Shown here piece by piece: positions 1,093 to 15,731 of a stretch of DNA of 30,746 nucleotides. Location of the stretch: assembly GCA_035573935.1 (NCBI GenBank), contig DATLZP010000115.1:1-30746 (forward strand), in the 5' to 3' direction. Below the pieces are notes generated by a model. That model saw nothing but the letters and a program-made list of their open reading frames with translations, did not search any database and was not told the origin of the DNA. The number at the start of each line of letters is the position of its first letter. Position 1 is the first letter of the stretch. The translations under genes were made by a program, and so were the position numbers. The stretch comes from Actinomycetota bacterium. GTDB taxonomy: Bacteria; Actinomycetota; UBA4738; HRBIN12.

Positions 1093-1260
1093 TCAGCCCC
1101 GGCGGCCGATCTCGCCCACCCGCTGGGGAGCGGGGGCGCCTGCATCGGACCGGAGCGTCCGGAGCACCCGCCGCTCGATCACGAGGGCGATCGCCCCCAT
1201 CGCCGCCCCGAGCAGGGCGCGCTCCAGGCGCCGGAGGAGCCGCCCCCCGGGCCCGGTCAC
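1093..1260 (-). CDS. Small hypothetical protein, 55 aa, one hydrophobic stretch
   Basis: GTG 1260 overlaps the cyclase stop (GTGA). MTGPGGRLLRRLERALLGAAMGAIALVIERRVLR..., the in-frame tail of track ORF 1093..1551. Confidence 0.55.
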   Translation of the reverse strand: MTGPGGRLLRRLERALLGAAMGAIALVIERRVLRTLRSDAGAPAPQRVGEIGRRG

Positions 1261-2546
1261 GACGGCGCCTCCGCGCCCAGCACGCGGTGGACCTCCACCG
1301 GCTCCTCCCGCCCCCGGACGTGGCGGACCCCGGCCGGCTCGGCCCGGACGGCGGGCGCCGCCCTCACGGTGCTCGCCGCCGCCACGATCTCCCCGCCCTC
1401 CGCCTCGGCCTGCAGCCGGGAGGCCACGTTCACGGCGTCCCCCACCACCGTGTACTCGAGGCGGCCACCGCCCCCGACCGTGCCGGCGATGACGAGGCCG
1501 GTGTTCACCCCGATCCCCACGAGGAGCGGGGGGAGCCCCGGGATCCCCCACCCCTCGGCGTTCAGCTCCTCCTGACGGGCCTGCATGGCGAGGGCGCAGC
1601 GCAGCGCCCGTTCCGCGTGGTCGGGCTGGGGGTCCGGCGCCCCGAACACGGCCATCACCGCATCCCCCTGGAACTTGTCGATCGTCCCCCCGTGGGCCAG
1701 CACGACCTCCGCCATCGCGGAGAGGTGCCGCCCCACGACCGTCGCGACGTCCCGGGCCGGGAGCTGCTCGGCGAGCGTCGAGAACCCGCGGATGTCGGAG
1801 AACAGGACGGTCACCTCGACCTCCTGGGGCGCGATCGCCGTCTCCGGCCGGGCGGCCAAGAGGTCGGCGAGCTGCTGGGGGACGAAGGAGGCCAGGGTCC
1901 GACGCGAGGCGGCCTGCTCGACCACCGCGGCGTGCAGGCGCTTGAACTCGTCGATCAGGCCGCCATCCGCCCGCCCGGCCATCCGCCGGAACAGCTCGGT
2001 GACCCGCCGGTCCACGGCCTCCTGCGTCGTGCCGAGCTCCGCGGCCATCTCCGCGTAGCCCATGCCCCGGGCCATGAGGTCGAGGATCCGGCGGTCCTCC
2101 TCCGCCGCGTCCCGCCGTCCCGACAGGCGCTCGGCGATCGCCGGGTCCACCGCCGACCCCCCCGCCGCCACCTCCCGGATGGCCCGGACCAGCTCGTCCC
2201 CCTGGGCGATGCGGTCCTTCAGCAGGTAAGCGAGGCCGCTCTGGCCCTTCCCCAGGAGCGCGATGGCGTAGTCCTCGTCGTCGTGGGCCGAGAGGACGAC
2301 GACGCCGGTCCCGGGGTGCCGGCCCCGGATCTCGTGCGCGCAGTCGATCCCCTCCAGCCGGAAGTGGGGAGGCATCTTGATGTCGGTGACCACCACGTCC
2401 GGAACGGTGTCCGCGGCCGCGCGGAGCAGCCCGGGCGCGTCCGCCGCCACCCCCACCACCTCGATGTCCGGGAACGATTCGAGCAGGGCCCGCACGCCCT
2501 CCCGGACCAGGACGTTGTCCTCACCCAGCACGACCCGGATCGTCAC
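1257..2546 (-). CDS. Response regulator with REC, LuxR-like HTH remnant and class III adenylate cyclase domain (429 aa)
   Basis: REC: VVLGEDN, TDIKMP, VLSAH, YLLK. HTH-like: RILDLMARGMGYAEMAAELG. Cyclase: VLFSDIRGF, IDKFQGDAVMA, GVNTG, EYTVVGDAVNVASRL. Start set at GTG 2546 from SD GGAGG spacing (track uses 2552). Confidence 0.92.
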   Translation of the reverse strand: MTIRVVLGEDNVLVREGVRALLESFPDIEVVGVAADAPGLLRAAADTVPDVVVTDIKMPPHFRLEGIDCAHEIRGRHPGTGVVVLSAHDDEDYAIALLGKGQSGLAYLLKDRIAQGDELVRAIREVAAGGSAVDPAIAERLSGRRDAAEEDRRILDLMARGMGYAEMAAELGTTQEAVDRRVTELFRRMAGRADGGLIDEFKRLHAAVVEQAASRRTLASFVPQQLADLLAARPETAIAPQEVEVTVLFSDIRGFSTLAEQLPARDVATVVGRHLSAMAEVVLAHGGTIDKFQGDAVMAVFGAPDPQPDHAERALRCALAMQARQEELNAEGWGIPGLPPLLVGIGVNTGLVIAGTVGGGGRLEYTVVGDAVNVASRLQAEAEGGEIVAAASTVRAAPAVRAEPAGVRHVRGREEPVEVHRVLGAEAPS

Positions 2547-2614
2547 GCCCACCCCTCCCCGCCCGGCGCCCGCCCGGGGCCCGGCCGCTCGTCCGACGCG
2601 CCCGGCGCCCCGTG

Positions 2615-2626: not shown

Positions 2627-3295
2627 GTGGTCCGCGTCGTGTTCGCCGAGGATAACTACCTCGTGCGGGAGGGGACCGCCGCGCTCCTCTCCGCCCGCGA
2701 GGACGTGGATCTCGTGGCCACCGTGGGCGACCTCGACGGCCTGCTGGCCGCGGTCGCCGAGCACGGCCCGGAGGCCGTCCTCACCGACATCCGGATGCCC
2801 CCCACCCACACCACCGAGGGGATCCAGGCCGCGAAGAGGATCCGCGACGAGCACCCGGGCACCGGCGTCGTGGTCCTGTCCCAGTACGCGGAGGAGGAGT
2901 ACGCCTACGAGCTCCTGCGCGACGGCGCGGCCGGCCTCGGCTACCTGCTCAAGGAACGCGTGGCGGACGTGGACGAGGTGGTCCGGGCGCTCCACGAGGT
3001 GGCCCGCGGCGGCTCCGTCCTCGACCCGAAGGTGGTCGAGGCCCTCGTGGCCCGCAAGGACCGCCTGGCGCACTCCCCGCTGGCCCAGCTCACCGACCGG
3101 GAGCGCGAGGTCCTGGCGCACATGGCCGAGGGGAAGAACAACGCCGCGATCGCCAGGGCGATGTTCCTCACCGAGCGGGCCGTCGAGAAGCACATCAACT
3201 CGCTGTTCCACAAGCTCGGCCTGTCGGAGGAGCGTGAGATCCACCGCCGCGTGATGGCCGTCCTCACCTTCCTCCGGGAGGAGCCGGTCGGCTAG
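2627..3295 (+). CDS. NarL/LuxR-family response regulator (REC + HTH)
   Basis: AEDN, TDIRMP, VLSQY, YLLK; HTH LTDREREVLAHMAEGKNNAAIA...VEKHINSLFHKLG. Confidence 0.96.
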   Translation: MVRVVFAEDNYLVREGTAALLSAREDVDLVATVGDLDGLLAAVAEHGPEAVLTDIRMPPTHTTEGIQAAKRIRDEHPGTGVVVLSQYAEEEYAYELLRDGAAGLGYLLKERVADVDEVVRALHEVARGGSVLDPKVVEALVARKDRLAHSPLAQLTDREREVLAHMAEGKNNAAIARAMFLTERAVEKHINSLFHKLGLSEEREIHRRVMAVLTFLREEPVG

Positions 3296-4477: not shown

Positions 4478-4608
4478 GTGAGAGGCTTGAGCGCCACCCC
4501 GGGCGGAAGGTTGCCGACGCGGCCCGGGGGAGGCAGCACGCGGCAGGGATGAGGGACTCCCCCCACGATGGTTCGGACCACACCCTTCCCGGGGCCGGAC
4601 CCGGAGGG

Positions 4609-4614
4609 CAGCAT
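4609..4614 (+). promoter_or_regulatory. -10-like CAGCAT, probable leaderless promoter of the kinase operon
   Basis: 6 nt before ATG 4621; same context (AGCATCGCSCC-RTG) as 2616-2629. Confidence 0.4.
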
Positions 4615-4620
4615 CGCGCC

Positions 4621-6723
4621 ATGACCGCACGGACGGCCTCTCGCCTGGCCTGGGCCGCGGTGGCCCTGTTCGCGGCGCTCGTCGCCAGCGGGCTCGCCCT
4701 CCTCGCCCGGAACGGACGGGGAGGCCTGGGCGGGAACCTCGCCATGGTCGTCGTCTTCGGATCGATCGTCGGGGTGGGGGCCCTCGTCGTCTCCCACCAG
4801 CCGGGGAACCCCATCGGATGGCTGTTCCTCTTCATCGGGACCGGCGCCGCGCTGAGCTTCGCCTCCGGGGAGTACGAGTTCCTGGCCTACGTGGCGGACC
4901 CCGCTCCGCCCCCGGGCCGGGCGATCGCCGCCTGGGTCTCCGGCTGGGCCTGGGTCGTGTCGATCGGCCCGATCATGACCTACGTTCCCCTCCTCTTCCC
5001 CGACGGCCGGCTGCCATCGCCCCGCTGGCGGCCGGTGGCGTGGGCGGCCGGTGCGCTGCTCCTCGTGTCCGCCCTCCTGTTCGCCGTGGCCGAGCGCCTG
5101 GAGATCACCGACGGGGTCCGGGTCCCCAACCCCTTCGGCCTGGTGGACCTCCCGGTGGCCTCCATCGACCAGGCGACCTTCCTCGCCTTCGTCGCGGTGG
5201 CCCTCCCCTCGGTCGCCGCCCTGATCGTGCGGTTCCGGAGGTCGACCGGCGAGGAGCGGCTCCGCCTCAAGTGGTTCACGTTCGGGATCGGGGTCCTGGC
5301 CGGGTTCTTCCTGTTCAGCGCGGCGGTCCAACTGCTCGGCCTGGGGGATGAGGTGCTCGGGGGGGACCTCATCGCGGCGGCCGCGTTCATGGCCGTCCCC
5401 GTGGGGGCGGGGATCGGGATCCTCCGCTACCAGCTCTTCGACATCGACCTCGTGATCCGGAAGACGGTCGTGTTCGGCCTCCTGGCCGCCTTCATCACGA
5501 TCGTCTACGGGGTCGTCGTGCTGGGGATCCCGGCCCTGGTGCTCGGCGTCCGGCCCACCGGGATGGGCGCGCTCCCCCTCGTGGCGGCGGTCGTGCTCGC
5601 GATCGCGTTCCAGCCCGTCCGCCGGCGGGCGCAGCACTGGGCGAACCGCCTCGTCTACGGGGAGCGGGCCACGCCCTACGAGGTCCTCTCGGAGTTCGCC
5701 CAGCGCATGAGCGGGACGTTCGCGGCGGAGGAGCTCCTGCCGCGGACGGCCCGGATCCTGAACGAGGGCACGGGGGCCGAGCGGACCGACGTGTGGCTGC
5801 GGGTGGGGGACGAGCTCCGGCCGGCCGCATCCTGGCCCTCCGGTGGACCCGAGCCCGGGCCGCTGCGGGTGGGGGCCGACGGCGAGCTGCCCCCGATCCC
5901 GGGCGCGGACGCCGCGTACCCCGTGCGACACCAGGACGAGCTGCTGGGCGCGGTCTCGATCCGCAAGCCTCGCGACGAGCCGATCACGGACACCGAGGAC
6001 CGGCTGCTGGCCCACGTCGCGGCCCAGGCCGGCCTCGTGCTGCGGAACGCTCGGCTCACCGAGGAGCTCCGGAGGACGATCGACGAGCTCCGGGCCTCCC
6101 GCCAGCGCCTGGTGACGGCCCAGGACGAGGAACGTCGGCGGCTGGAGCGGAACATCCACGACGGGGCCCAGCAGCAGCTCGTGGCCCTCACCGTGCAGCT
6201 CCGGCTCCTCGAGGAGCGGATCGGGCGGGACCCGGAGGGGGCGAGGGAGGCCGCGTCGCAGCTCCGGGGGGCGGCCGCCGAGGCCCTCGAGGACCTCCGG
6301 GACCTGGCCCGGGGGATCTACCCCCCGCTCCTCGCCGACAAGGGGCTCCCGGCGGCGATCGAGGCCCAGGCCCGCAGGTCGAACACCCCCATCGACGTTG
6401 AGGCGGACGGCGTGGCACGCCACCCGCCCCAGACGGAGGCCGCCGTCTACTTCTGCTGCCTCGAGGCGATCCAGAACGCGACGAAGCACGCGGGCGCGGC
6501 CCGCATCGTCGTCCGGATCTCGGAGGGGGATGGCGAGCTTCGCTTCGAGGTCGAGGACGACGGTCGGGGGTTCGAGCCGGCCGCGATCCCCCGAGGGACC
6601 GGGCTGCAGAACATGTCCGACCGGCTGGAGGCGCTGGGGGGCACCCTCGAGATCCGATCCGTCCCGGGCCGCGGCACGACGATCCGGGGACGGCTGCCCA
6701 CGGACGGGGGGCGGGCGGGATGA
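4621..6723 (+). CDS. Membrane sensor histidine kinase HK1 (multi-TM, GAF-like, HisKA_3, HATPase_c), 700 aa
   Basis: H-box ERRRLERNIHDGAQQQL (His codon 6157-6159), N-box EAIQNATKHA, DDGRGF, GTGLQNM. Start placed at ATG 4621. Confidence 0.93.
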   Translation: MTARTASRLAWAAVALFAALVASGLALLARNGRGGLGGNLAMVVVFGSIVGVGALVVSHQPGNPIGWLFLFIGTGAALSFASGEYEFLAYVADPAPPPGRAIAAWVSGWAWVVSIGPIMTYVPLLFPDGRLPSPRWRPVAWAAGALLLVSALLFAVAERLEITDGVRVPNPFGLVDLPVASIDQATFLAFVAVALPSVAALIVRFRRSTGEERLRLKWFTFGIGVLAGFFLFSAAVQLLGLGDEVLGGDLIAAAAFMAVPVGAGIGILRYQLFDIDLVIRKTVVFGLLAAFITIVYGVVVLGIPALVLGVRPTGMGALPLVAAVVLAIAFQPVRRRAQHWANRLVYGERATPYEVLSEFAQRMSGTFAAEELLPRTARILNEGTGAERTDVWLRVGDELRPAASWPSGGPEPGPLRVGADGELPPIPGADAAYPVRHQDELLGAVSIRKPRDEPITDTEDRLLAHVAAQAGLVLRNARLTEELRRTIDELRASRQRLVTAQDEERRRLERNIHDGAQQQLVALTVQLRLLEERIGRDPEGAREAASQLRGAAAEALEDLRDLARGIYPPLLADKGLPAAIEAQARRSNTPIDVEADGVARHPPQTEAAVYFCCLEAIQNATKHAGAARIVVRISEGDGELRFEVEDDGRGFEPAAIPRGTGLQNMSDRLEALGGTLEIRSVPGRGTTIRGRLPTDGGRAG

Positions 6724-8792
6724 GGCCGGGGACGGCCCGCGGGGTGGCGTGGGGCGCCTTCGGGACGGCCGTCGCCTCCGCGGCGGGAGGGATCGCGGTC
6801 AGCGTGGCGAGCGGAGCAGGGCGGGGCGAGGTCGGCGACCCGGTGATCGGCCTCGGGCTCCTCGTGTTCGGCACCGTCGGAGCCCTCGTCGCGTCGAGGC
6901 GGCCGGGGAACGCGATCGGATGGATCTTCGTGTCGGTGGCGCTCTTCATCGGTGTCATCGGCGCGCTCGAGGGGATCCAGGACCGCCTCGCCGCCGGCGG
7001 GGACTCATGGGCGGCGCTCGGGGAGGACGCCTCGCTCGCCGCCCGTCTCCTGGCCTGGATCGGCGGATGGGCCTGGGTCCCCTCCATCTTCGTCCCGACG
7101 ACGTTCCCCCTGCTGCTGTTCCCCGACGGCCGTCTGCCATCGCGCCGGTGGCGAGCCCTCTTCTGGGCGGCCGCGATCGGGCTCCCGGCGTTCTCGCTCT
7201 CGATGGCCTTCGATCCCTCGAACTACGGGGGTGGACGGCTCCCCCTGGGGATCCGCCCTCCTGGTCCCCTCGTGGCCGCCTCCGGGCTGGGAAGCCTCCT
7301 GCTGGTCGGCGGGGTGATCGGCGGAGGCGCGGCGGTGGTCACCCGGCTCCGGCGGTCCTCGGGCGAGGAGCGCCAGCAGATCAAGTGGCTCGCGTACGCC
7401 GGCGTCCTCGCCGCGGTCTGCCTCGTCGGGAGCTTCCTCACCGGGGGCATCCTCGCCGCCCTGGGCGTGGATGCCGCCGAGGGCACCGCGGTCGCCGACG
7501 TGCTGAACCTCGTCGTCCTCGTCTCGCTGCTCGCGCTCCCCATCGCCATGGGGTTCGCGATCCTCCGCTACCGCCTCTACGACATCGACCTGGTCATCCG
7601 GAAGACGGTCGTCTACGGGGCGCTCGCGGCGTTCATCACGCTCGTGTACGTGGGCGTCGTGGCCGGGATCGGGGCACTGATCGGGAGCCGCGGGAACGTC
7701 CTGCTGTCGGGGCTCGCCGCCGCGGTCGTCGCGGTGGCGTTCCAGCCGGTGCGCCACCGGGCCCAGCGCCTGGCGAACCGGCTCGTGTACGGGAGGCGGG
7801 CCACACCGTACGAGGTCCTCGCCGAGTTCTCCGCCCGGCTGGCCGGCTCCTACTCCCTCGACGACGTCCTGCCCCGCATGGCCCGCGTCCTCGCCGAGGG
7901 CACGGGCGCCGCCCGCGCGACGATCTGGCTCCGGTCGGCGCAGGGACACCGCGCCGCCGCCACCTGGCCGGCAGGCACCCACCCGGCACCGCTCGATCCC
8001 GGGTTCGAGGTCCGCCATCAGGGGGAGGTGCTCGGGGCGATCTCCGTCGCGACGCCCCCCGACGAGCCGCTCACACCGGTTCAGGAACAGCTGATCCGCG
8101 ACGTGGCCGGGCAGGCGGGGCTGGTGCTCCGGAACGTCCGGCTGATCGAGGACCTCCGGGCCTCCCGCCAGCGCCTCGTAGCCGCCCAGGACGAGGAACG
8201 TCGGCGGCTGGAGCGGAACATCCACGACGGGGCCCAGCAGCAGCTCGTGGCCCTCACGGTGCAGCTCCGGCTCCTCGAGCAGCGGATCGAGCGGGACCCG
8301 GAGGGGGCGAGGGAGGCCGCGGCCCAGCTCCGGGGAGCGGCCGCCGAGGCGCTCGAGGACCTCCGGGACCTGGCCCGGGGGATCTACCCCCCGCTCCTCG
8401 CGGACAAGGGGCTCCCGGCGGCGATCGAGGCCCAGGCCCGGAAGGCCCCGGTCCCGGTCAGGCTCCAGGCGGACGGCGTGGGGCGCTACCCCCGGGAGGC
8501 GGAGGCCGCCGTGTACTTCTGCGTCCTGGAGGCCCTCCAGAACGCGGCGAAGCACGCGGGGGGGTCGGAGGTCCGGGTCCGGCTGTGGGCCTCGGAAGGC
8601 GAGCTGGCCTTCGCCGTGGAGGACGACGGGCCGGGCTTCGACCCCTCCACCACCCCCCGGGGGGCCGGCCTCCAGAACATGGCCGATCGGATCGAGGCCC
8701 TGGGCGGCTCGCTCGAGGTCCGGAGCTTGCCCGGTGCGGGCACGACCGTGGCCGGGAGGCTGCCCACCCACCACTCGGAGGCGACGCCGTGA
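6720..8792 (+). CDS. Membrane sensor histidine kinase HK2, 690 aa
   Basis: ATGA overlap with HK1; ERNIHDGAQQQL, EALQNAAKHA, DDGPGF, GAGLQNM. Confidence 0.94.
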   Translation: MRPGTARGVAWGAFGTAVASAAGGIAVSVASGAGRGEVGDPVIGLGLLVFGTVGALVASRRPGNAIGWIFVSVALFIGVIGALEGIQDRLAAGGDSWAALGEDASLAARLLAWIGGWAWVPSIFVPTTFPLLLFPDGRLPSRRWRALFWAAAIGLPAFSLSMAFDPSNYGGGRLPLGIRPPGPLVAASGLGSLLLVGGVIGGGAAVVTRLRRSSGEERQQIKWLAYAGVLAAVCLVGSFLTGGILAALGVDAAEGTAVADVLNLVVLVSLLALPIAMGFAILRYRLYDIDLVIRKTVVYGALAAFITLVYVGVVAGIGALIGSRGNVLLSGLAAAVVAVAFQPVRHRAQRLANRLVYGRRATPYEVLAEFSARLAGSYSLDDVLPRMARVLAEGTGAARATIWLRSAQGHRAAATWPAGTHPAPLDPGFEVRHQGEVLGAISVATPPDEPLTPVQEQLIRDVAGQAGLVLRNVRLIEDLRASRQRLVAAQDEERRRLERNIHDGAQQQLVALTVQLRLLEQRIERDPEGAREAAAQLRGAAAEALEDLRDLARGIYPPLLADKGLPAAIEAQARKAPVPVRLQADGVGRYPREAEAAVYFCVLEALQNAAKHAGGSEVRVRLWASEGELAFAVEDDGPGFDPSTTPRGAGLQNMADRIEALGGSLEVRSLPGAGTTVAGRLPTHHSEATP

Positions 8793-10900
8793 CTCCACGC
8801 ACCGCCTCCCGCCTCGCGTGGTCGCTGTCCGGGGTATCCGCGACGGCGATGCTGCTCTCGTTGCTCGTCAGCCAGCTCCGCCAGGGTGGCAGCACCGGCT
8901 TCGGCACCATCGGCGTCGGCGCCGCACTCACGTTCCCCCTCGTCGGTGGGCTCGTGGGGTCCCGCCGCCCAGAGAACGCCATCGGATGGCTCCTCGGCGT
9001 GACCGGCTTTTCTCTCGGGATGGCGGCGTTCTCGCAGCAGTACTCCCACTACGCACTGATCGATCGGAGCGGTCTTCCGCTCGGCGACCTCGCGGCATGG
9101 GTGGGAACCTGGATCTGGCCCACCGGCATCGTGATCCTCTTCGTCTTCGCGCTCCTGCTCTTCCCCACTGGTCACCTTCCCTCGCGAAGGTGGCGCCCCG
9201 TGGCCTGGTTGGGCGGGCTGAGCACCGCTCTGGGGACGATCCCCGTGGCCATCACAGCGTGGCCCATCCGAGGCCCGATCCTGCTGGAGATCGGGGATGA
9301 TGCACCCGGCGCAGCGACCGCCGGTTTCAAGCTCGCCTTCGATCTCCAGGTCGCGGCCATCCTGCTGATGTTCGCGCTGGGGCTGGTCTCGGCGGTGTCG
9401 GTCGTGCTGCGGTTCAGGAGGTCGGCGGGAGAGGAGCGCCAGCAACTGAAGTGGTTCGCCCTCGGTGGTTCGCTCCTGGTCGTCGGTTTCATCCTCAATA
9501 GCCCACTGTTCCACCTCGGCGGCGACGTGCTCCCGGTCCTCCTCATCCCCCTCCTGCCTGCTGCCATCGGGATCGCCATCCTGAAGTACCGCCTCTACGA
9601 CATCGACGTCGTCATCAGCAAGGCGGTCCTCTTCGGCGCGCTCGCGGCCTTCATCACGGTCGTCTACGTGGGGGTCGTGGTCGGCGTGGGGTCGGTGCTC
9701 GGTAGGACCGAGCCCGACCTCACCCTCCAGGTGGCGGCGACGGCGCTCGTCGCGCTCGCGTTCCAGCCGGTGCGGGAGGGAGCCCGGCGGCTGGCGAACC
9801 GCCTGGTGTACGGGGAGCGGGCCGAGCCCTACGAGGTCCTCGCTCGATTCGCCTCCCGGGCCGCGGGGACGTACGCGACCGAGGACGTGCTCCCGCGCAC
9901 GGCGCGGGTGATCGGGGAGGGGACCGGCGCCGCCCGAGCCGAGGTGTGGCTCCGGGTGGGGGAGGAGCTCCGGCTCGGCGCGGCCTGGCCGGAGGACGGG
10001 GGCGGGCGCCCCCGGGCGCTCCCCATGGCCGACGGCCGGCTCCCGGAGGTCCCCGGCGCCACCGAGCTGGTGCCGGTCGCGCAGCGCGGGGAGCTCCTGG
10101 GCGCGGTGGCCGCCACGAAGCCACCGGGGGAGCCGCTCACGCCCGCCGAGGCGTCGCTCCTCGACGACCTGGCGAAGCAGGCCGGCCTGGTGCTCCGCAA
10201 CGCCCGGCTCACCGAGGAGCTCCGGGCCCGCCTGGAGCAGATCGCTGCCCGGGCGGAGGAGCTCCGGGCGTCCCGCCAGCGGATCGTGGCGGCGCACGAC
10301 GCGGAGCGGCGACGCCTTGAGCGGAACATCCACGACGGCGCGCAGCAGCACCTCGTGGCCCTCGCCGTCAAGCTCCGCCTGGCCCGGGAGCTCCTGGCTC
10401 GCGATCCGGGCCGGGCGGCCGCGCTCCTGGGGGAGCTCCGCGCCGAGATCGACCAGGCGCTCGAGACCCTCCGGGACCTGGCGGGTGGGATCTACCCGGC
10501 GGTCCTCGAGGAACGGGGCATCGCCGCGGCCCTGGAGGACCAGGCCGGACTGGCGGACGTCCCCGTGGAGATCGAGGGGGACGGCCTGGCCCGGTGGCCG
10601 ATCGAGACCGAGGCCGCGGTGTACTTCTCCTGCCTGGAGGCCCTGCAGAACGCGCTCAAGCACGCCGGGGCCCGCCGGGTCCGCATCCGGCTGACCGAGG
10701 CGGCGGGACACCTCCGCTTCTCCGTCGCCGACGACGGCAGGGGATTCGATCCCGCCACGGTCCCCGTGGGGGCCGGCCTCCGCAACATGGCGGACCGGGT
10801 GGAAGCGTTGGGGGGCCACCTCGAGGTCCGATCGGTCCCCGGCCTGGGGACGACGGTCGAGGGCGCCGTCCCCGTGGAGATCCCGGGGTCGGCCCGATGA
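8789..10900 (+). CDS. Membrane sensor histidine kinase HK3, 703 aa
   Basis: GTGA overlap with HK2; true start inside track ORF 6398..10900 (MTPRTASRLAW); ERNIHDGAQQHL, EALQNALKHA, DDGRGF, GAGLRNM. Confidence 0.93.
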   Translation: MTPRTASRLAWSLSGVSATAMLLSLLVSQLRQGGSTGFGTIGVGAALTFPLVGGLVGSRRPENAIGWLLGVTGFSLGMAAFSQQYSHYALIDRSGLPLGDLAAWVGTWIWPTGIVILFVFALLLFPTGHLPSRRWRPVAWLGGLSTALGTIPVAITAWPIRGPILLEIGDDAPGAATAGFKLAFDLQVAAILLMFALGLVSAVSVVLRFRRSAGEERQQLKWFALGGSLLVVGFILNSPLFHLGGDVLPVLLIPLLPAAIGIAILKYRLYDIDVVISKAVLFGALAAFITVVYVGVVVGVGSVLGRTEPDLTLQVAATALVALAFQPVREGARRLANRLVYGERAEPYEVLARFASRAAGTYATEDVLPRTARVIGEGTGAARAEVWLRVGEELRLGAAWPEDGGGRPRALPMADGRLPEVPGATELVPVAQRGELLGAVAATKPPGEPLTPAEASLLDDLAKQAGLVLRNARLTEELRARLEQIAARAEELRASRQRIVAAHDAERRRLERNIHDGAQQHLVALAVKLRLARELLARDPGRAAALLGELRAEIDQALETLRDLAGGIYPAVLEERGIAAALEDQAGLADVPVEIEGDGLARWPIETEAAVYFSCLEALQNALKHAGARRVRIRLTEAAGHLRFSVADDGRGFDPATVPVGAGLRNMADRVEALGGHLEVRSVPGLGTTVEGAVPVEIPGSAR

Positions 10901-12987
10901 GGTTCCGCGCGACCTCCGCCGTCGCGTGGGGCGCGTGGGCGGCCTTCGCCCTCGGCCTGGGCTGGACCCTCGCCGTCCGGGGACCGGCGCTCTCCGGGGA
11001 CCTGCTCCAGGACATCCCGCTGATCGTGGCCTTCTCCGCCTTCCCCACCGTCGGCGCCGTGGTGGCCTCGCGACGCCCCCGGAACCCGATCGGCTGGCTG
11101 TTCCTCGGGATCGGGGTCCTGGCCGCCGCGGGCGCCGCCAGCGAGACCTACGCCGACATGGCGCTTCCCCGTCCCGGGTCCCCTCCGATGCTCGCCGTCC
11201 TGGCCGCCTGGATCCAGGCCTGGTACTGGTACCCGCTCCTGGCCATGGCGACCGTGTTCCCGCTGCTCCTGTTCCCGGCGGGGCTGCCGTCCCGGCGCTG
11301 GCGACCGGTCCTGTGGCTGGCGGTGATCTCCGTCCTGGCGACCACGGCCGCCGCCGCGCTCCAGCCGACGCTGTCGGGGGGCGGGAGGACGATCCCGAAC
11401 CCGTTCGGCGTCCGGTGGACCGGCGCGCCGGACGTCGAGGAGACCGCGTTCTTCCAGGCGTTCTCGCTCGTGTTCGGGGGCACCCTGATGGCGGCCGCTG
11501 CCTCCCTCGTCGTGCGGTTCCGGCGGTCCCGGGGGGATGAGCGGCTCCAGCTCAAGTGGTTCGTCTTCGCGGCCGGCGTCCTCGCCGCGTCGATCATCCT
11601 GGCCACGGCCGTCCCCGCCTTCGACCGCTCCGCGGCCGGCGGGCTGATGACGGGGTTCGCGCTGGCGCTCATCCCCATCGCGTGCGGGATCGCGATCCTC
11701 AGGCACCGCCTCTACGACATCGACCTCGTCCTCAACCGGGCGGTGGTCTTCGGGGCGTTGGCCGCGTTCATCGGCGCCGTCTACGTGGCGATCGTGGTGG
11801 GGCTGGGATCCCTGGCCGGTCGGGTGGGCGAGCCGAGCGTGCCGCTCCAGATCGCGGCCACGGCGGTCGTCGCGGTGGCGTTCCAGCCGGTCCGGGAGCG
11901 GGTCCAGCGGCTCGCCAACCGGCTCGTGTACGGCGAGCGGGCCACCCCCTACGAGGTCATGGCCGGCTTCGCCCACCGCATGGCCGACACGCTGTCCGTG
12001 GACGAGACGCTGCCGGCCATGGCGGAGGTGGCGGCCCGAGGTGTCGGCGCCAGGTGGGGGCGGGTGGGCATCCGGCTCCGCGACGGCGGCGAGCGGGCGG
12101 CGAGCTGGCCCCCGGGAGCGCCGGAGCCTCCGGCCCCCATCGCCATCCCGGTCACGCACCGGGGTGAGCCGGTCGGGGAGATCGCCGTCGCCAAGGCGCC
12201 CGGCGACCCCCTCACGCCGGCCGAGCGGCGGCTGCTGGAGGACCTGGCCTCCCAGGCCGGCCTGGCCCTGCGGAACGCGGGGCTCGCCGCCGAGCTCGAG
12301 GCCCGGCTCGGGGAGCTCACGGCGCAGGCGGAGGACCTGCGCCGGTCCCGGGAGCGGCTGGTGACGGCCCGGGACGAGGAACGCCGGCGCCTGGAGCGGG
12401 AGATCCGGGAGGGCCCGGAGCGGCGCCTGCTCGCGATGCGCGCCGACGTGGACCGCGCGGCCCGCCTGGCGACGACCGACCCCGGGGCGGCCGGCGCCGT
12501 CCTCGACGACCTGGGGGCGCTCGCGAACACCACGCTCGAGGAGCTCCGGGACCTGGCCCGGGGGATCTACCCCCCGCTCCTCGCCGAGGAGGGCCTGCTG
12601 GCGGCGCTCCGGGCGCACGTCCGCAAGGCGGGGATCGCGGCCGAGATCTCCGCGGACGGCGGGTCGGCCGCCGCGCGCCTGGCCCCGGAGGTGGAGGCCG
12701 GGATCTACTTCTGCCTGGTCCACGCGCTCCGCAACGTGCAGCGGCACGCGGCCGGCGCCGCGGTCTCCGTGCGCATCTCGCGGGACGGCGACGGCGTCGG
12801 GTTCGAGGTCGTGGACCGGGGCCCGGGGTTCGATCCGGCCGCCACCCGGACCGGGCAGGGGCTCCAGGTGATGCGGGACCGGGTCGAGGCCCTGGGTGGC
12901 CGGCTCGACGTGTCGAGCGCGCCGGGCCGGGGCACCGTGGTCCGGGGCCGGATCCCGCTCGCCCTCGGAGCCGGGGCGGCCCCGTGA
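10897..12987 (+). CDS. Kinase-like sensor HK4 lacking the phosphoacceptor His (pseudokinase), 696 aa
   Basis: ATGA overlap with HK3. H-box reads EREIREGPERRL (His replaced by Arg, codon 12406-12408); N-box HALRNVQRHA; DRGPGF and GQGL retained. Confidence 0.88.
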   Translation: MRFRATSAVAWGAWAAFALGLGWTLAVRGPALSGDLLQDIPLIVAFSAFPTVGAVVASRRPRNPIGWLFLGIGVLAAAGAASETYADMALPRPGSPPMLAVLAAWIQAWYWYPLLAMATVFPLLLFPAGLPSRRWRPVLWLAVISVLATTAAAALQPTLSGGGRTIPNPFGVRWTGAPDVEETAFFQAFSLVFGGTLMAAAASLVVRFRRSRGDERLQLKWFVFAAGVLAASIILATAVPAFDRSAAGGLMTGFALALIPIACGIAILRHRLYDIDLVLNRAVVFGALAAFIGAVYVAIVVGLGSLAGRVGEPSVPLQIAATAVVAVAFQPVRERVQRLANRLVYGERATPYEVMAGFAHRMADTLSVDETLPAMAEVAARGVGARWGRVGIRLRDGGERAASWPPGAPEPPAPIAIPVTHRGEPVGEIAVAKAPGDPLTPAERRLLEDLASQAGLALRNAGLAAELEARLGELTAQAEDLRRSRERLVTARDEERRRLEREIREGPERRLLAMRADVDRAARLATTDPGAAGAVLDDLGALANTTLEELRDLARGIYPPLLAEEGLLAALRAHVRKAGIAAEISADGGSAAARLAPEVEAGIYFCLVHALRNVQRHAAGAAVSVRISRDGDGVGFEVVDRGPGFDPAATRTGQGLQVMRDRVEALGGRLDVSSAPGRGTVVRGRIPLALGAGAAP

Positions 12988-15192
12988 GCCGCGGCGCTCG
13001 CGCGGAGCCCCCGGAGCCACTCCCCGTCCCGACCGGGGGCGGCCCGGGAGGAGGACACGAGGCGAGCGAGCGGGGACGGAGGCGCCTCCCCTGGGTCGTG
13101 TGGGCGGTCGGCTTCCTCGTGATCTTCCCGGGAGCGATGGTCCTCGGGATCCGCAACGGCAGCCTCTCGCAGGACCCGATGCTCATCATGCTTTCCATCG
13201 GATTGGTGACCGGCTACGCCGCCGTCGGCGCGCTGGTGGCATCGAGGAGCTCGGTCCCGGTGATCGGCTGGCTCATGCTCGTCATCGGCGTGGGGTTCCT
13301 CCTCAGCGCGGCGGCCGCCGAGTACGTGATCTACGCGTACCGGACCGACCCGGGCGCTCTGCCCCTCCGGTCCGCGGTGGCCTGGCTGTGGAGCTGGATC
13401 GACGTGCCCGCGATCATCTCGGTGCTCTACCTCTTGCTCCTCTTCCCCACCGGGCGGGTGCCATCCCACAGGTGGCGGTCCCTCCCCCCCGTGATCGGCC
13501 TGTTCAGCCTCATGGCCGTGGCCGGCCAGGTCGTCCGATCGGCCCCGATCGAGCCGACCGATGGCGTCCGCGTCCCCAACCCGACCGCCGTGCCGGAGCT
13601 CGACGCGGCGGCCGACGCCATGCTCACGGCCGCCGCGTTCGTCCTGGTCCCCGCGGCGATCGCCTGCGCCATGGCCCCGGTGCTCCGGTTCCAACGCTCG
13701 ACGGGGGTGGAGCGTCAGCAGATCCGCTGGCTGGCCTTCGCGGTCGCGCTGGGCGGCGTCGCGCTGGTCGTGGTGCTGGTGAGCGGGATCGGCCTCGGTC
13801 CGAAAGAGACGGTCGTGAACGACGTGGCGTTCTTCGCGTTCTTCGCCTGCGTCGGCATCGGGATCCCCATCGCGGCCGGGGTGGCCGTCCTTCGGTACCG
13901 CCTCTACGCCCTGGACCTCGTGGTCCGGAAGACCCTGGTGTTCGGCTTGCTCGTCGTGTCGGCGTCGATCGCCTACGGCGCGGTCGTCGTCTCGATCGGG
14001 TTCCTGGTGGGGGAGCGCAACACCCCGCTCTCGATGTTCGCGCTCGGGATCGCGCTCGGAACCGCGTTCCCGCTCTTCCGGCGGCAGGCCACCCGGCTGG
14101 CCGACCGGATCGTGTACGGGCGGCGAGCCACGCCGTACGAGGTGCTCTCCGGCTTCGCGGAGCGGGTGGCGAGGACGTACGCGAGCGAGGACGTGCTCCC
14201 CCGGATGGCCCAGATCCTCGCCCAGGGGACCGGGGCCGAGGTGGCCCGGGTGTGGCTCCTGATGGGGCGGGAGCTCCGGGCCGAGGCGACGTGGCCGCCG
14301 GATGGGGGGCCCGCCGGTCCCGCCCGGGTCGCCGGCGACGCCCTCCCGGAGCTCCCCGGCGGCGAGCGGGCCTTCGAGGTGCGGCACCAGGGGGAGCTGC
14401 TCGGGGCGCTCAGCCTGCGGATGCCCCAGAGCGACTCCCTCGACCCGGCCCGGGAGAGGCTCGTGGCCGACCTCGCGTCCCAGGGCCGGGCTGGTCCTCC
14501 GGAACGTCCGGCTGATCCAGGAGCTCAGGGGGTCCCGACGTCGACTGGTCGCCGCCCAGGACGAGGAGCGCCGGCGGATCGAACGCAACCTCCACGACGG
14601 CGCGCAGCAGCAGCTGGTGGCGCTCTCCGTGCGGCTCCGCCTAGCGGAGCAGCTCGTCGAGCGGGATGCGGCCAAGGCCAAGGAGGCGATCGGGCGGATC
14701 CAGGCCGAGGCCACCGAGGCGCTCGAGAACCTCCGGGATCTGGCCCGGGGGATCTACCCGCCGCTCCTCGCCGACCGGGGGCTCCCCGCCGCCCTCGAGG
14801 CCCAGGCCCGGAAGGCGTCCCTCCCGGTGCGGGTGGAGGCCTCCGGGGTCGACCGCTACCCACGGGAGGTGGAATCCGCGGTCTACTTCTGCGTCCTCGA
14901 GGCCCTCCAGAACGCGGCGAAGTACGCCCGGGCCGAGCACGTGATGGTCCGGCTCTCCGCCGCGCACGACGAGCTGCGGTTCGAGGTCTCCGACGACGGT
15001 GCGGGGTTCGACCCGGGGTCCGCGCATGGCGGCACGGGGCTCCGGGGGATGGCCGACCGGGTGGAGGCCGTGGGCGGCTCCCTCCAGGTCCGCTCGGCCC
15101 CAGGGTCGGGGACCTCGGTCGTCGGACGGGTGCCGGTCGGCACGGGAGGGACGCGGGAGGACGGGCTCCATCCCGGTGGGACCACCGGCTAG
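12984..15192 (+). pseudogene. Sensor histidine kinase HK5 split by a +1 G insertion (about 735 aa if repaired): recent pseudogene or sequencing error
   Basis: GTGA overlap with HK4. The sensor/GAF half is in the frame of 12984. CAG-G-GCC at 14481-14487 shifts the rest (AGLVLRN...ERNLHDGAQQQL...EALQNAAKYA...DDGAGF) into the frame of ORF 14302..15192. Confidence 0.85.
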
Positions 15193-15288: not shown

Positions 15289-15666
15289 TCAGTCCGCGCC
15301 GGCCGTCGCGGCCGACCAGGCCTGCTCCAGCCGGTCGGGGGCGAACACCGCCTTCGGGATGTAGGCGGCGGCGCCGCACTCGGCGGCCCGGGGCGCGTAC
15401 TCCTCCTCCTCGTAGGTGGAGAGCAGGAGGACGACCACGGAGTCCCCCTCGGCCAGGATGCGCCGGGTGGCCTCCAGCCCATCGATCCCCGGGAGGTTCA
15501 CGTCCATCAGGACCAGGTCGGGCCGGAGCTCCCGGGCCTTCTCCACGGAGTCCTCGCCGGTCTCGGCCTCCCCCGCGACCTCGAAGCCCTCCGTGGCCTC
15601 CACCACCATCCGGGCGGCCAGGCGGAACGGCGCCTGGTCGTCCACGATCAGCACCCGGACGCTCAC
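15289..15666 (-). CDS. Single-domain response regulator (REC only), 125 aa
   Basis: MSVRVLIVDDQ, LVLMDVNLPGIDG, LLSTY, YIPK; SD GGAGGTGA before GTG 15666; no output domain. Confidence 0.93.
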   Translation of the reverse strand: MSVRVLIVDDQAPFRLAARMVVEATEGFEVAGEAETGEDSVEKARELRPDLVLMDVNLPGIDGLEATRRILAEGDSVVVLLLSTYEEEEYAPRAAECGAAAYIPKAVFAPDRLEQAWSAATAGAD

Positions 15667-15685
15667 GAGCGTCACCTCCACGCCA

Positions 15686-15731
15686 AGGTTCCCACCGGCC
15701 GGGCGTCCCGGCAGTGATGCTGGCACCACTC
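15686..15731 (-). promoter_or_regulatory. Promoter of the single-domain REC: GAACCT -10-like element plus an 8-2-8 inverted repeat
   Basis: AGTGATGC-TG-GCACCACT at 15713-15730 (7/8 symmetric), centred about 30 nt upstream of GAACCT (15691-15686). Confidence 0.5.

What the first reader, a model, noticed from the sequence alone, without database searches (positions are those of the whole stretch)
6088..8438. DHp-coding segment homogenised between HK1 and HK2 while flanks diverge
Seen (hand alignment): 6088-6372 versus 8154-8438 is 285 nt with 12 mismatches and 4 amino-acid changes in 95. It includes a 74-nt identical run that shares the rare codons GAA CGT. The adjacent ATPase and sensor regions are far more divergent, and HK3 and HK5 differ at silent sites in the same segment. 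Established: the DHp sets dimerisation and regulator specificity. Inference: recent gene conversion limited to the DHp keeps different sensors wired to the same receivers. Protein-level selection alone would not explain the silent-site identity.
Basis: partly seen in the sequence, partly recalled or inferred. Interest (0 to 1): 0.7.

Follow-up and report, generated by a model that had tools for sequence, protein, structure and literature searches.

The report
Gene conversion between neighbouring sensor kinases
Two neighbouring sensor-kinase genes in an uncultured soil actinobacterium share a nearly identical 285-base stretch because one gene's dimerisation/phosphotransfer domain was copied over the other's; this is a clean but fairly ordinary gene conversion, not shown to be a device for keeping signalling wires together.

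Summary
6088-6372 and 8154-8438 differ at 12 of 285 bases, with a 74-nt identical run. The flanks of the same two genes are 59-69% identical.

The window is one contig of a fragmented metagenome-assembled genome (GC 74%, GC3 about 97%). It carries five 4-bp-overlapping HisKA_3 kinase paralogues, HK1 to HK5.

- **Silent sites:** codons for identical amino acids match in 85/91 cases inside the tract and 172/287 outside it. dS is 0.11 inside and 0.5-0.8 outside.
- **Trees with two same-genus genomes:** upstream of the tract, HK2 groups with its orthologues (100%). Inside the tract it groups with HK1 of its own genome (99%), next to the HK1 orthologues.
- **Shared derived codons:** the rare GAA CGT pair occurs only in these two copies.

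So HK1's DHp overwrote HK2's after the species split.

The functional reading is not supported. The sister genomes keep a divergent HK2 DHp core. They also carry other tracts, in the ATPase domain and with different ends. The tract ends lie in conserved motif blocks, which recombination mechanics alone explains.

Shared regulator specificity and heterodimerisation of HK1 and HK2 are inferred consequences and were not tested. An assembly artefact is unlikely but not fully excluded.

The parts
4549..6723 (+). HK1: membrane sensor, GAF, HisKA_3 and HATPase_c kinase; donor of the tract
   Evidence: Pfam, GC3 frame, orthologues in G001 at 80-81% protein identity
6088..6374 (+). HK1 copy of the tract (aa 514-609): S-helix end, whole DHp and the start of the DHp-CA linker
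   Evidence: HisKA_3 at 6130-6327
6720..8792 (+). HK2: paralogous kinase whose start overlaps the HK1 stop by 4 bp; recipient of the tract
   Evidence: regions flanking the tract are orthologous to G001 and G002 HK2
8154..8440 (+). HK2 copy of the tract; HK1-type sequence that keeps the ancestral HK1-type residues at all four amino-acid differences
6190..6279 (+). Variable DHp core (C-terminal half of helix 1, hairpin loop, N-terminal half of helix 2), the only part where the conversion changed much information
   Evidence: HK1-type versus unconverted HK2-type is 40-67% identical here and 83-97% in the blocks 6085-6189 and 6280-6325
6058..6087 (+). Linker indel (HK1 has 7 more residues than HK2) directly left of the tract; likely left-hand barrier to heteroduplex
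   Evidence: protein alignment
8789..10900 (+). HK3, unconverted paralogue
10897..12987 (+). HK4, paralogue without the phospho-accepting His (IREG instead of IHDG)
12984..15192 (+). HK5, paralogue with a +1 frameshift (extra G at 14484) just before its DHp
2627..3295 (+). NarL/LuxR-type response regulator, the only one next to the array
   Evidence: Pfam REC + GerE
1257..2552 (-). Receiver-cyclase response regulator
   Evidence: Pfam
15289..15729 (-). Stand-alone receiver protein
   Evidence: Pfam

Best explanation
A single ectopic, non-reciprocal homologous recombination (gene conversion) took place between two tandem paralogues 2066 bp apart. About 290 bp of HK1, the whole DHp four-helix-bundle module, was copied over the corresponding part of HK2. 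It happened in the lineage of this genome after it split from the two other known species of the genus. The exchange was anchored on two blocks that all paralogues conserve: the H-box region at 6085-6189 and the helix-2 'LRDLARGIYPP' region at 6280-6325. On the left it stopped at a 21-nt linker indel. On the right it stopped where the divergent DHp-CA linker begins. The variable core between the anchors (about 30 codons) was carried along. Shown: the tract, its silent-site identity, its direction and its relative age. Inferred: the RecA-type mechanism, and the consequence that HK1 and HK2 now share regulator specificity and may heterodimerise. The same array in relatives shows other such exchanges with other end points. 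The DHp limit here therefore reflects where homology allowed resolution, not a dedicated wiring mechanism.
For: There are 12 mismatches in 285 nt, against 59-69% identity in the flanks. Codon identity at identical residues is 85/91 inside and 172/287 outside, p = 1.7e-10. The maximal-fragment permutation test gives 120.5 against 14.1 +/- 3.0. Tract dS is 0.11, flanks 0.51-0.77 and orthologues 0.36-0.46. In the ML trees the upstream 5400-6087 HK2 orthologue clade has 100% support. The tract clade (W_HK1, W_HK2) has 99% support and sits next to G001 HK1a/b, with G1_HK2 and G2_HK2 elsewhere. GAA CGT CGG CGG CTG is found only in W_HK1 and W_HK2 among 14 sequences. In the tract W_HK2 is 86% identical to G001 HK1a but 79% and 76% to its own orthologues; upstream the figures are 72% against 85% and 82%. 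Independent k=31 contigs of run X1 bridge the left tract end in both genes (5893-6131 with 0 differences, 7847-8213 with 1 difference). No exact run in the tract exceeds 74 nt, so reads of 100 nt or more and large assembly k-mers tell the copies apart.
Against: The genome is a fragmented short-read metagenome bin (419 contigs, 81% complete). No listed independent contig spans the discriminating core 6190-6279 / 8256-8345 together with unique flanks. In run X1 the window-type sequence at 6377-6487 has a depth of only 3.9, while a recombinant contig has 14.7, so the right-hand end in HK1 may differ between haplotypes. With GC3 near 97%, background silent-site identity is already 50-70%, so the dS values are rough. 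The donor could be the HK1 of a closely related strain rather than of the same chromosome.
Confidence: 0.86

Rival explanations
1. One reading: conversion of the DHp is selectively maintained so that different sensors stay wired to the same receivers (concerted evolution of the specificity module).
For: The tract matches the DHp domain almost exactly. Five kinases share one adjacent NarL-type regulator, one receiver-cyclase and one single receiver. HK2's copy has no amino-acid change since the event.
Against: Both same-genus genomes keep a divergent HK2 DHp core. HK3, HK4 and HK5 are not homogenised. Other tracts in G001, G017 and L184 lie in or reach into the ATPase domain. The tract ends coincide with conserved sequence blocks and an indel, which is a neutral mechanical explanation. 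Since the event HK1 itself has gained 4 amino-acid changes in the DHp, so the copies are diverging, not being held together.
Confidence: 0.1
2. Assembly artefact: the HK1-type tract in HK2 (or the reverse) is a chimeric path through a strain variant in a metagenome assembly.
For: The source is a fragmented bin of short-read contigs. Run X1 holds at least one alternative in-register HK2/HK1 join and mixed depths over the region.
Against: The two copies differ at 12 sites, so this is not a collapse. Unconverted HK1-type and HK2-type sequences share exact runs of only 14-44 nt at the tract edges, too short for two graph crossings at the usual final k. The independent k=31 contigs join each gene's unique upstream flank to its own variant of the tract start. 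No alternative contig for this region exists in the bin.
Confidence: 0.04
3. No recombination: strong purifying selection plus extreme codon bias keeps the DHp alike in HK1 and HK2.
For: The DHp is the best-conserved part of the family and GC3 is about 97%.
Against: The other nine pairs show 0.46-0.67 codon identity at identical residues in the same segment. HK2's orthologues differ strongly there. The shared codons are rare ones, against the bias.
Confidence: 0.01

Closest known systems
Ectopic gene conversion between bacterial paralogues (for example tufA/tufB, rRNA operons, tandem surface-protein genes; own knowledge, review by Santoyo and Romero 2005)
   Same: A non-reciprocal copy of a short tract between nearby paralogues. 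It is detected by silent-site identity, mosaic identity profiles and gene-tree/species-tree conflict.
   Different: Here the donor and recipient were only about 65-70% identical overall. The tract is short (about 290 bp), is anchored on two conserved motif blocks and replaces one functional module of a signalling protein.
Domain shuffling / within-gene recombination in two-component systems (Pao and Saier 1995 and others, as cited in bioRxiv 10.1101/2020.09.30.321588; Alm et al. 2006, own knowledge)
   Same: Modules of kinases and regulators are exchanged by recombination. In this genus the sensor domains of HK2, HK3 and HK5 are also non-orthologous between species, while the rest of each gene is orthologous.
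   Different: The described cases mostly concern sensor or effector domains over long evolutionary distances. Here the DHp alone is exchanged, between adjacent genes, and the event can be dated within a genus. Three library searches found no paper describing a DHp-limited conversion.
HisKA_3 (NarL-partner) kinases such as DesK, VraS/LiaS, DevS/DosT
   Same: HisKA_3 DHp with the HDxxxQ H-box plus HATPase_c. The best solved match is DesK (7ssj, E = 7e-12), and the ATPase part also matches DevS and DosT. GAF precedes the DHp as in DevS.
   Different: There is a large N-terminal multi-pass membrane sensor with no Pfam match. The genes sit in tandem arrays of up to about 9, with up to 17 matches to HK1 per genome in this order.
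Insulation of paralogous kinases after duplication (Capra et al. 2012; Ashenberg et al. 2011; own knowledge)
   Same: It concerns the same residues, at the base of DHp helix 1, the loop and the start of helix 2, which set partner and dimer specificity.
   Different: Those studies describe divergence after whole-gene duplication. Here an already diverged DHp was reset to its neighbour's state, which would re-create cross-talk.

Membership tests
Ectopic gene conversion tract | Local identity between paralogues far above that of the flanks, beyond chance | tested here: met
   95.8% against 59-69%; permutation score 120.5 against 14.1 +/- 3.0
Ectopic gene conversion tract | Identity extends to synonymous sites | tested here: met
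   85/91 against 172/287 codons; dS 0.11 against 0.5-0.8
Ectopic gene conversion tract | Tree conflict: paralogues of one genome group together in the tract, orthologues group together in the flanks | tested here: met
   99% and 100% bootstrap
Ectopic gene conversion tract | Shared derived states absent from orthologues of both genes | tested here: met
   GAA CGT ... CTG only in W_HK1 and W_HK2
Ectopic gene conversion tract | Both copies physically confirmed with their flanks by independent reads | tested here: inconclusive
   The left ends are bridged by contigs of run X1. The core and the right end of HK1 are not, and an alternative join was seen.
HisKA_3 histidine kinase | HisKA_3 DHp domain with phospho-accepting His | tested here: met
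   PF07730 at 55-57 bits in HK1 and HK2, over the cut-off; IHDGAQQ present. Not met in HK4 (IREG).
HisKA_3 histidine kinase | HATPase_c catalytic domain | tested here: met
   PF02518 at 50-52 bits
HisKA_3 histidine kinase | Phosphotransfer to a NarL/LuxR-type regulator | not testable with these tools
   Only adjacency: a REC-GerE gene at 2627-3295
Concerted evolution (maintained homogenisation) of the DHp | Homogenised DHp recurs in related genomes or across the array | tested here: not met
   The G001 and G002 HK2 cores are divergent and HK3 to HK5 are not homogenised

The most novel reading that the evidence does not exclude
The kinase arrays of this actinobacterial order evolve as cassette systems. 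Sensor, DHp and ATPase modules are repeatedly swapped between neighbours at conserved motif blocks, so inputs are re-routed in single steps. After the DHp reset seen here, HK1 (four amino-acid changes at the base of the bundle, none in HK2) is re-insulating itself from HK2.
Probability: 0.2. Interest if true: 0.7.

Novelty: new member of a known kind. Interest (0 to 1): 0.42.

Why it matters
Partner specificity of two-component kinases is usually thought to change by a few point mutations after duplication. This is a dated natural case in which the whole specificity and dimerisation module of one kinase was replaced in one step by its neighbour's. That should merge two previously separate inputs onto one output, or create heterodimers. 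The sister species still carry the unconverted state. The pair HK2 (this genome) and HK2 (G001/G002) is therefore a ready-made natural experiment for testing how DHp replacement rewires signalling. As a mechanism it is ordinary gene conversion.

Tried and rejected
1. Searching the JGI metagenome contigs and the GTDB species genomes with HK2 and HK1 for strain-level relatives gave only paralogue-level hits (59% identity or less) apart from the G001 contig.

2. A survey of 72 further multi-kinase loci for long recent tracts found few: one of 281 nt at 92.9% in the ATPase domain and three of 129-153 nt at 90-95% over the H-box region. The short H-box hits may be conservation rather than conversion, so they were not counted as events.

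3. Runs X2 to X4 hold only short or relative-level pieces and say nothing about this organism.

4. The k=31 contigs cannot phase the tract core with its flanks. The lack of cover at 6132-6481 and 8214-8375 is not evidence.

5. I considered 'HK2 is a recent duplicate of HK1 whose flanks were replaced' and rejected it. Upstream of the tract HK2 groups with the G001 and G002 HK2 orthologues at 100% support. Downstream it is closest to G001 HK1b (0.85), then G002 HK2 (0.77), and that tree is poorly supported.

6. I sent no complex prediction or structure job, because no binding claim is made.
Full report
**Context.** The window is the whole of contig C115, the longest contig of a fragmented metagenome-assembled genome: 419 contigs, 2.31 Mb, GC 74%, 81% complete. 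Third codon positions are about 97% G or C. Long spurious ORFs therefore abound, and silent sites are already 50-70% identical between any two paralogues.

Frame-specific GC, tblastn and Pfam give five tandem kinase genes on the + strand:
- HK1, 4549-6723
- HK2, 6720-8792
- HK3, 8789-10900
- HK4, 10897-12987
- HK5, 12984-15192

Each start overlaps the previous stop by 4 bp (ATGA or GTGA). Each gene encodes a multi-pass membrane sensor, a GAF-like region, a HisKA_3 DHp and HATPase_c. The closest solved relative is DesK.

The array is flanked by a NarL-type regulator (2627-3295), a receiver-cyclase (1257-2552, minus strand), a USP gene and a single-receiver gene (15289-15729, minus strand). Then come holB, an MFS-tmk ORF and topA. 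Record titles of relatives call them uncultured soil Actinomycetota.

**The observation.** 6088-6372 and 8154-8438 align without gaps, with 12 mismatches in 285 nt and 4 amino-acid differences in 95. The longest identical run is 6118-6191, 74 nt. A 90-nt sliding window jumps from 0.62-0.69 to 0.94-0.98 and falls back to 0.72-0.81.

At codons that encode the same residue, 85 of 91 are identical inside the tract and 172 of 287 outside (p = 1.7e-10). For all other pairs and regions this fraction is 0.46-0.75.

I ran a Sawyer-type maximal-fragment test on the 1305 polymorphic sites of the five-gene alignment. HK1/HK2 scores 120.5 over fragment 6090-6373, against a permutation mean of 14.1 (sd 3.0, maximum 32.1). 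No other pair exceeds 22.

**What it is.** Two species of the same genus are held. G001 has HK1 in two versions (a and b), plus HK2, HK3 and HK4. G002 has HK2 to HK5.

- **Identity to orthologues.** Upstream of the tract (5400-6087) W_HK2 is 85% identical to G001 HK2, 82% to G002 HK2 and 68-72% to any HK1. Inside the tract it is 96% identical to W_HK1, 86% and 83% to G001 HK1a and HK1b, and only 79% and 76% to its own orthologues.
- **Trees.** ML trees show the same conflict. Upstream, every orthologue group is a clade (98-100%). In the tract (W_HK1, W_HK2) is a 99% clade beside G001 HK1a/b, with G1_HK2 and G2_HK2 elsewhere.
- **Shared derived codons.** GAA CGT and the following CTG are found only in W_HK1 and W_HK2 among 14 sequences. 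All the others have GAG CGC or CGG there, except W_HK4, which has GAA CGC.
- **Relative age.** dS is 0.11 in the tract, 0.74 upstream and 0.51 downstream, and 0.36-0.46 between orthologues.

The event is therefore an HK1-to-HK2 conversion. It is younger than the split from G001 by roughly a factor of four, though these clocks are crude.

**Why the tract is where it is.** I compared HK1-type sequences with the unconverted HK2 of G002. There are two conserved blocks, 6085-6189 (83-97% identity, exact runs of 20-29 nt) and 6280-6325 (83-97%). They flank a variable core, 6190-6279, at 40-67% identity.

The tract equals left block plus core plus right block. On its left lies a 21-nt indel in the linker. 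On its right lies the divergent DHp-CA linker. The next conserved block, the N-box at about 6430-6486, is where other junctions fall (see below). The DHp limit is thus what homology-dependent recombination would give without any selection.

**Is it a DHp-specific rule?** No.
- **G001, HK1a and HK2.** They are only 48-65% identical in the DHp core but 98.9% identical over the last 282 nt of their contigs (equivalent to 6290-6563). The contig overlaps (51 nt and 141 nt, from a k141 assembly) show that the identity continues to about 6654. That tract runs from the end of helix 2 through most of the ATPase domain.
- **G001, HK1b.** It carries an ATPase segment that is 87-97% identical to W_HK2.
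- **G001, HK4.** It carries an HK5-like C-terminal part.
- **Other genomes.** Among about 95 kinase genes in arrays of 21 genomes, and 72 further multi-kinase loci, the long high-identity tracts are few. Most lie in the ATPase domain: G017 with 196 nt at 91.8%, and L184 with 281 nt at 92.9%.
- **Sensor domains.** They are also mosaic. The N-terminal about 260 residues of HK3 have no orthologue in G001 or G002, although the rest of the gene is 80-82% identical at the DNA level. The same holds for HK2 and HK5 against G002.

**Assembly check.** No other contig of the bin carries this region.

Run X1 holds 73% of the sampled words of 5600-8900. Its independent k=31 contigs include 5893-6131 (0 differences) and 7847-8213 (1 difference). 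These join each gene's unique upstream sequence to its own variant of the tract start. The core is not phased by these contigs.

One 1440-nt contig at the organism's depth (14.7) joins 8376-8547 to 6482-7749. This is exactly in register (offset 2066), at a point where the two genes share only 13 nt. The window-type sequence at 6377-6487 has a depth of 3.9. This looks like a second haplotype in which HK1 carries HK2-type sequence up to the N-box, or a hybrid gene from unequal crossing-over. I could not resolve which.

A collapse is excluded by the 12 differences. A double chimera is unlikely, because unconverted HK1-type and HK2-type sequences share exact runs of only 14-44 nt.

**Function.** It is established (own knowledge: Skerker 2008, Ashenberg 2011, Capra and Laub 2012) that the base of the DHp sets regulator and dimer specificity. 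The conversion changed about 20 residues of HK2 there to HK1's. My inference is that HK1 and HK2 now share partners and may heterodimerise, whereas their ancestors probably did not.

All four amino-acid differences in the tract are derived in W_HK1. W_HK2 keeps the ancestral HK1-type residues. This is compatible with relaxed or diversifying change in HK1 after the event, but the numbers are too small to test.

The genome has 19 HisKA_3 matches and 24 GerE matches. Only one NarL-type regulator lies next to the five kinases.

**Literature.** Three full-text searches found no description of a DHp-limited conversion between tandem kinases. Within-gene recombination in two-component proteins is a known theme.

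**Verdict.** This is a real, well-supported and datable gene conversion, an instance of a known process. The proposed wiring-maintenance function is not supported.

Noticed in passing
window:14472-14490: HK5 has a +1 frameshift (an extra G at 14484 in CAG-G-GCC) directly before its DHp. Upstream it reads in frame 3 and downstream in frame 1. G002's HK5 is intact. This is either a pseudogene or a sequencing or assembly error.
   Followed up: partly
window:10897-12987: HK4 lacks the phospho-accepting His (IREGPERR instead of IHDGAQQQ) and the N-box Glu. The His loss is conserved in G001 and G002, so HK4 is an old, retained pseudokinase. In G001 its C-terminal part is HK5-like and has the normal N-box.
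   Followed up: partly
window:8789-9566 (also 6720-7361 and 12984-13860): The sensor domains are not orthologous between species of the genus, while the rest of each gene is. HK3's N-terminal 260 residues have no match above 47% in any fetched locus and none above 41% in the genome arrays searched, G001 and G002 included. HK2 and HK5 likewise have none in G002. This suggests sensor-module replacement.
   Followed up: partly
L031:12758-13039 vs L032:1836-2117; L032:1-141 vs L033:4190-4330: In the sister genome G001, HK1a and HK2 share a near-identical tract from the end of the DHp through most of the ATPase domain. The contigs break exactly at this repeat.
   Followed up: yes
window:8376-8547 joined to 6482-7749 (run X1): An independent contig of a public metagenome run crosses from HK2 to HK1 in register inside the N-box region, at the organism's depth. 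It may be a second recombinant haplotype or an unequal-crossover hybrid.
   Followed up: partly
L044 (G018:C122:1-19000) and tallies: This kinase family is greatly expanded in the order: up to 17 matches per 2-4 Mb genome and tandem runs of up to 9 genes.
   Followed up: partly
window:16984-18960 (-): One open frame carries an MFS transporter domain followed by thymidylate kinase, between holB and topA. This is an apparent membrane-anchored Tmk fusion.
   Followed up: no
window:6040-6087, 8106-8153, 10200-10261: The GAF-to-DHp linkers differ by whole heptads: HK2 and HK5 are shortest, HK1 has 7 more residues, and HK3 and HK4 have 14 more. The HK1/HK2 tract starts right after this indel.
   Followed up: partly
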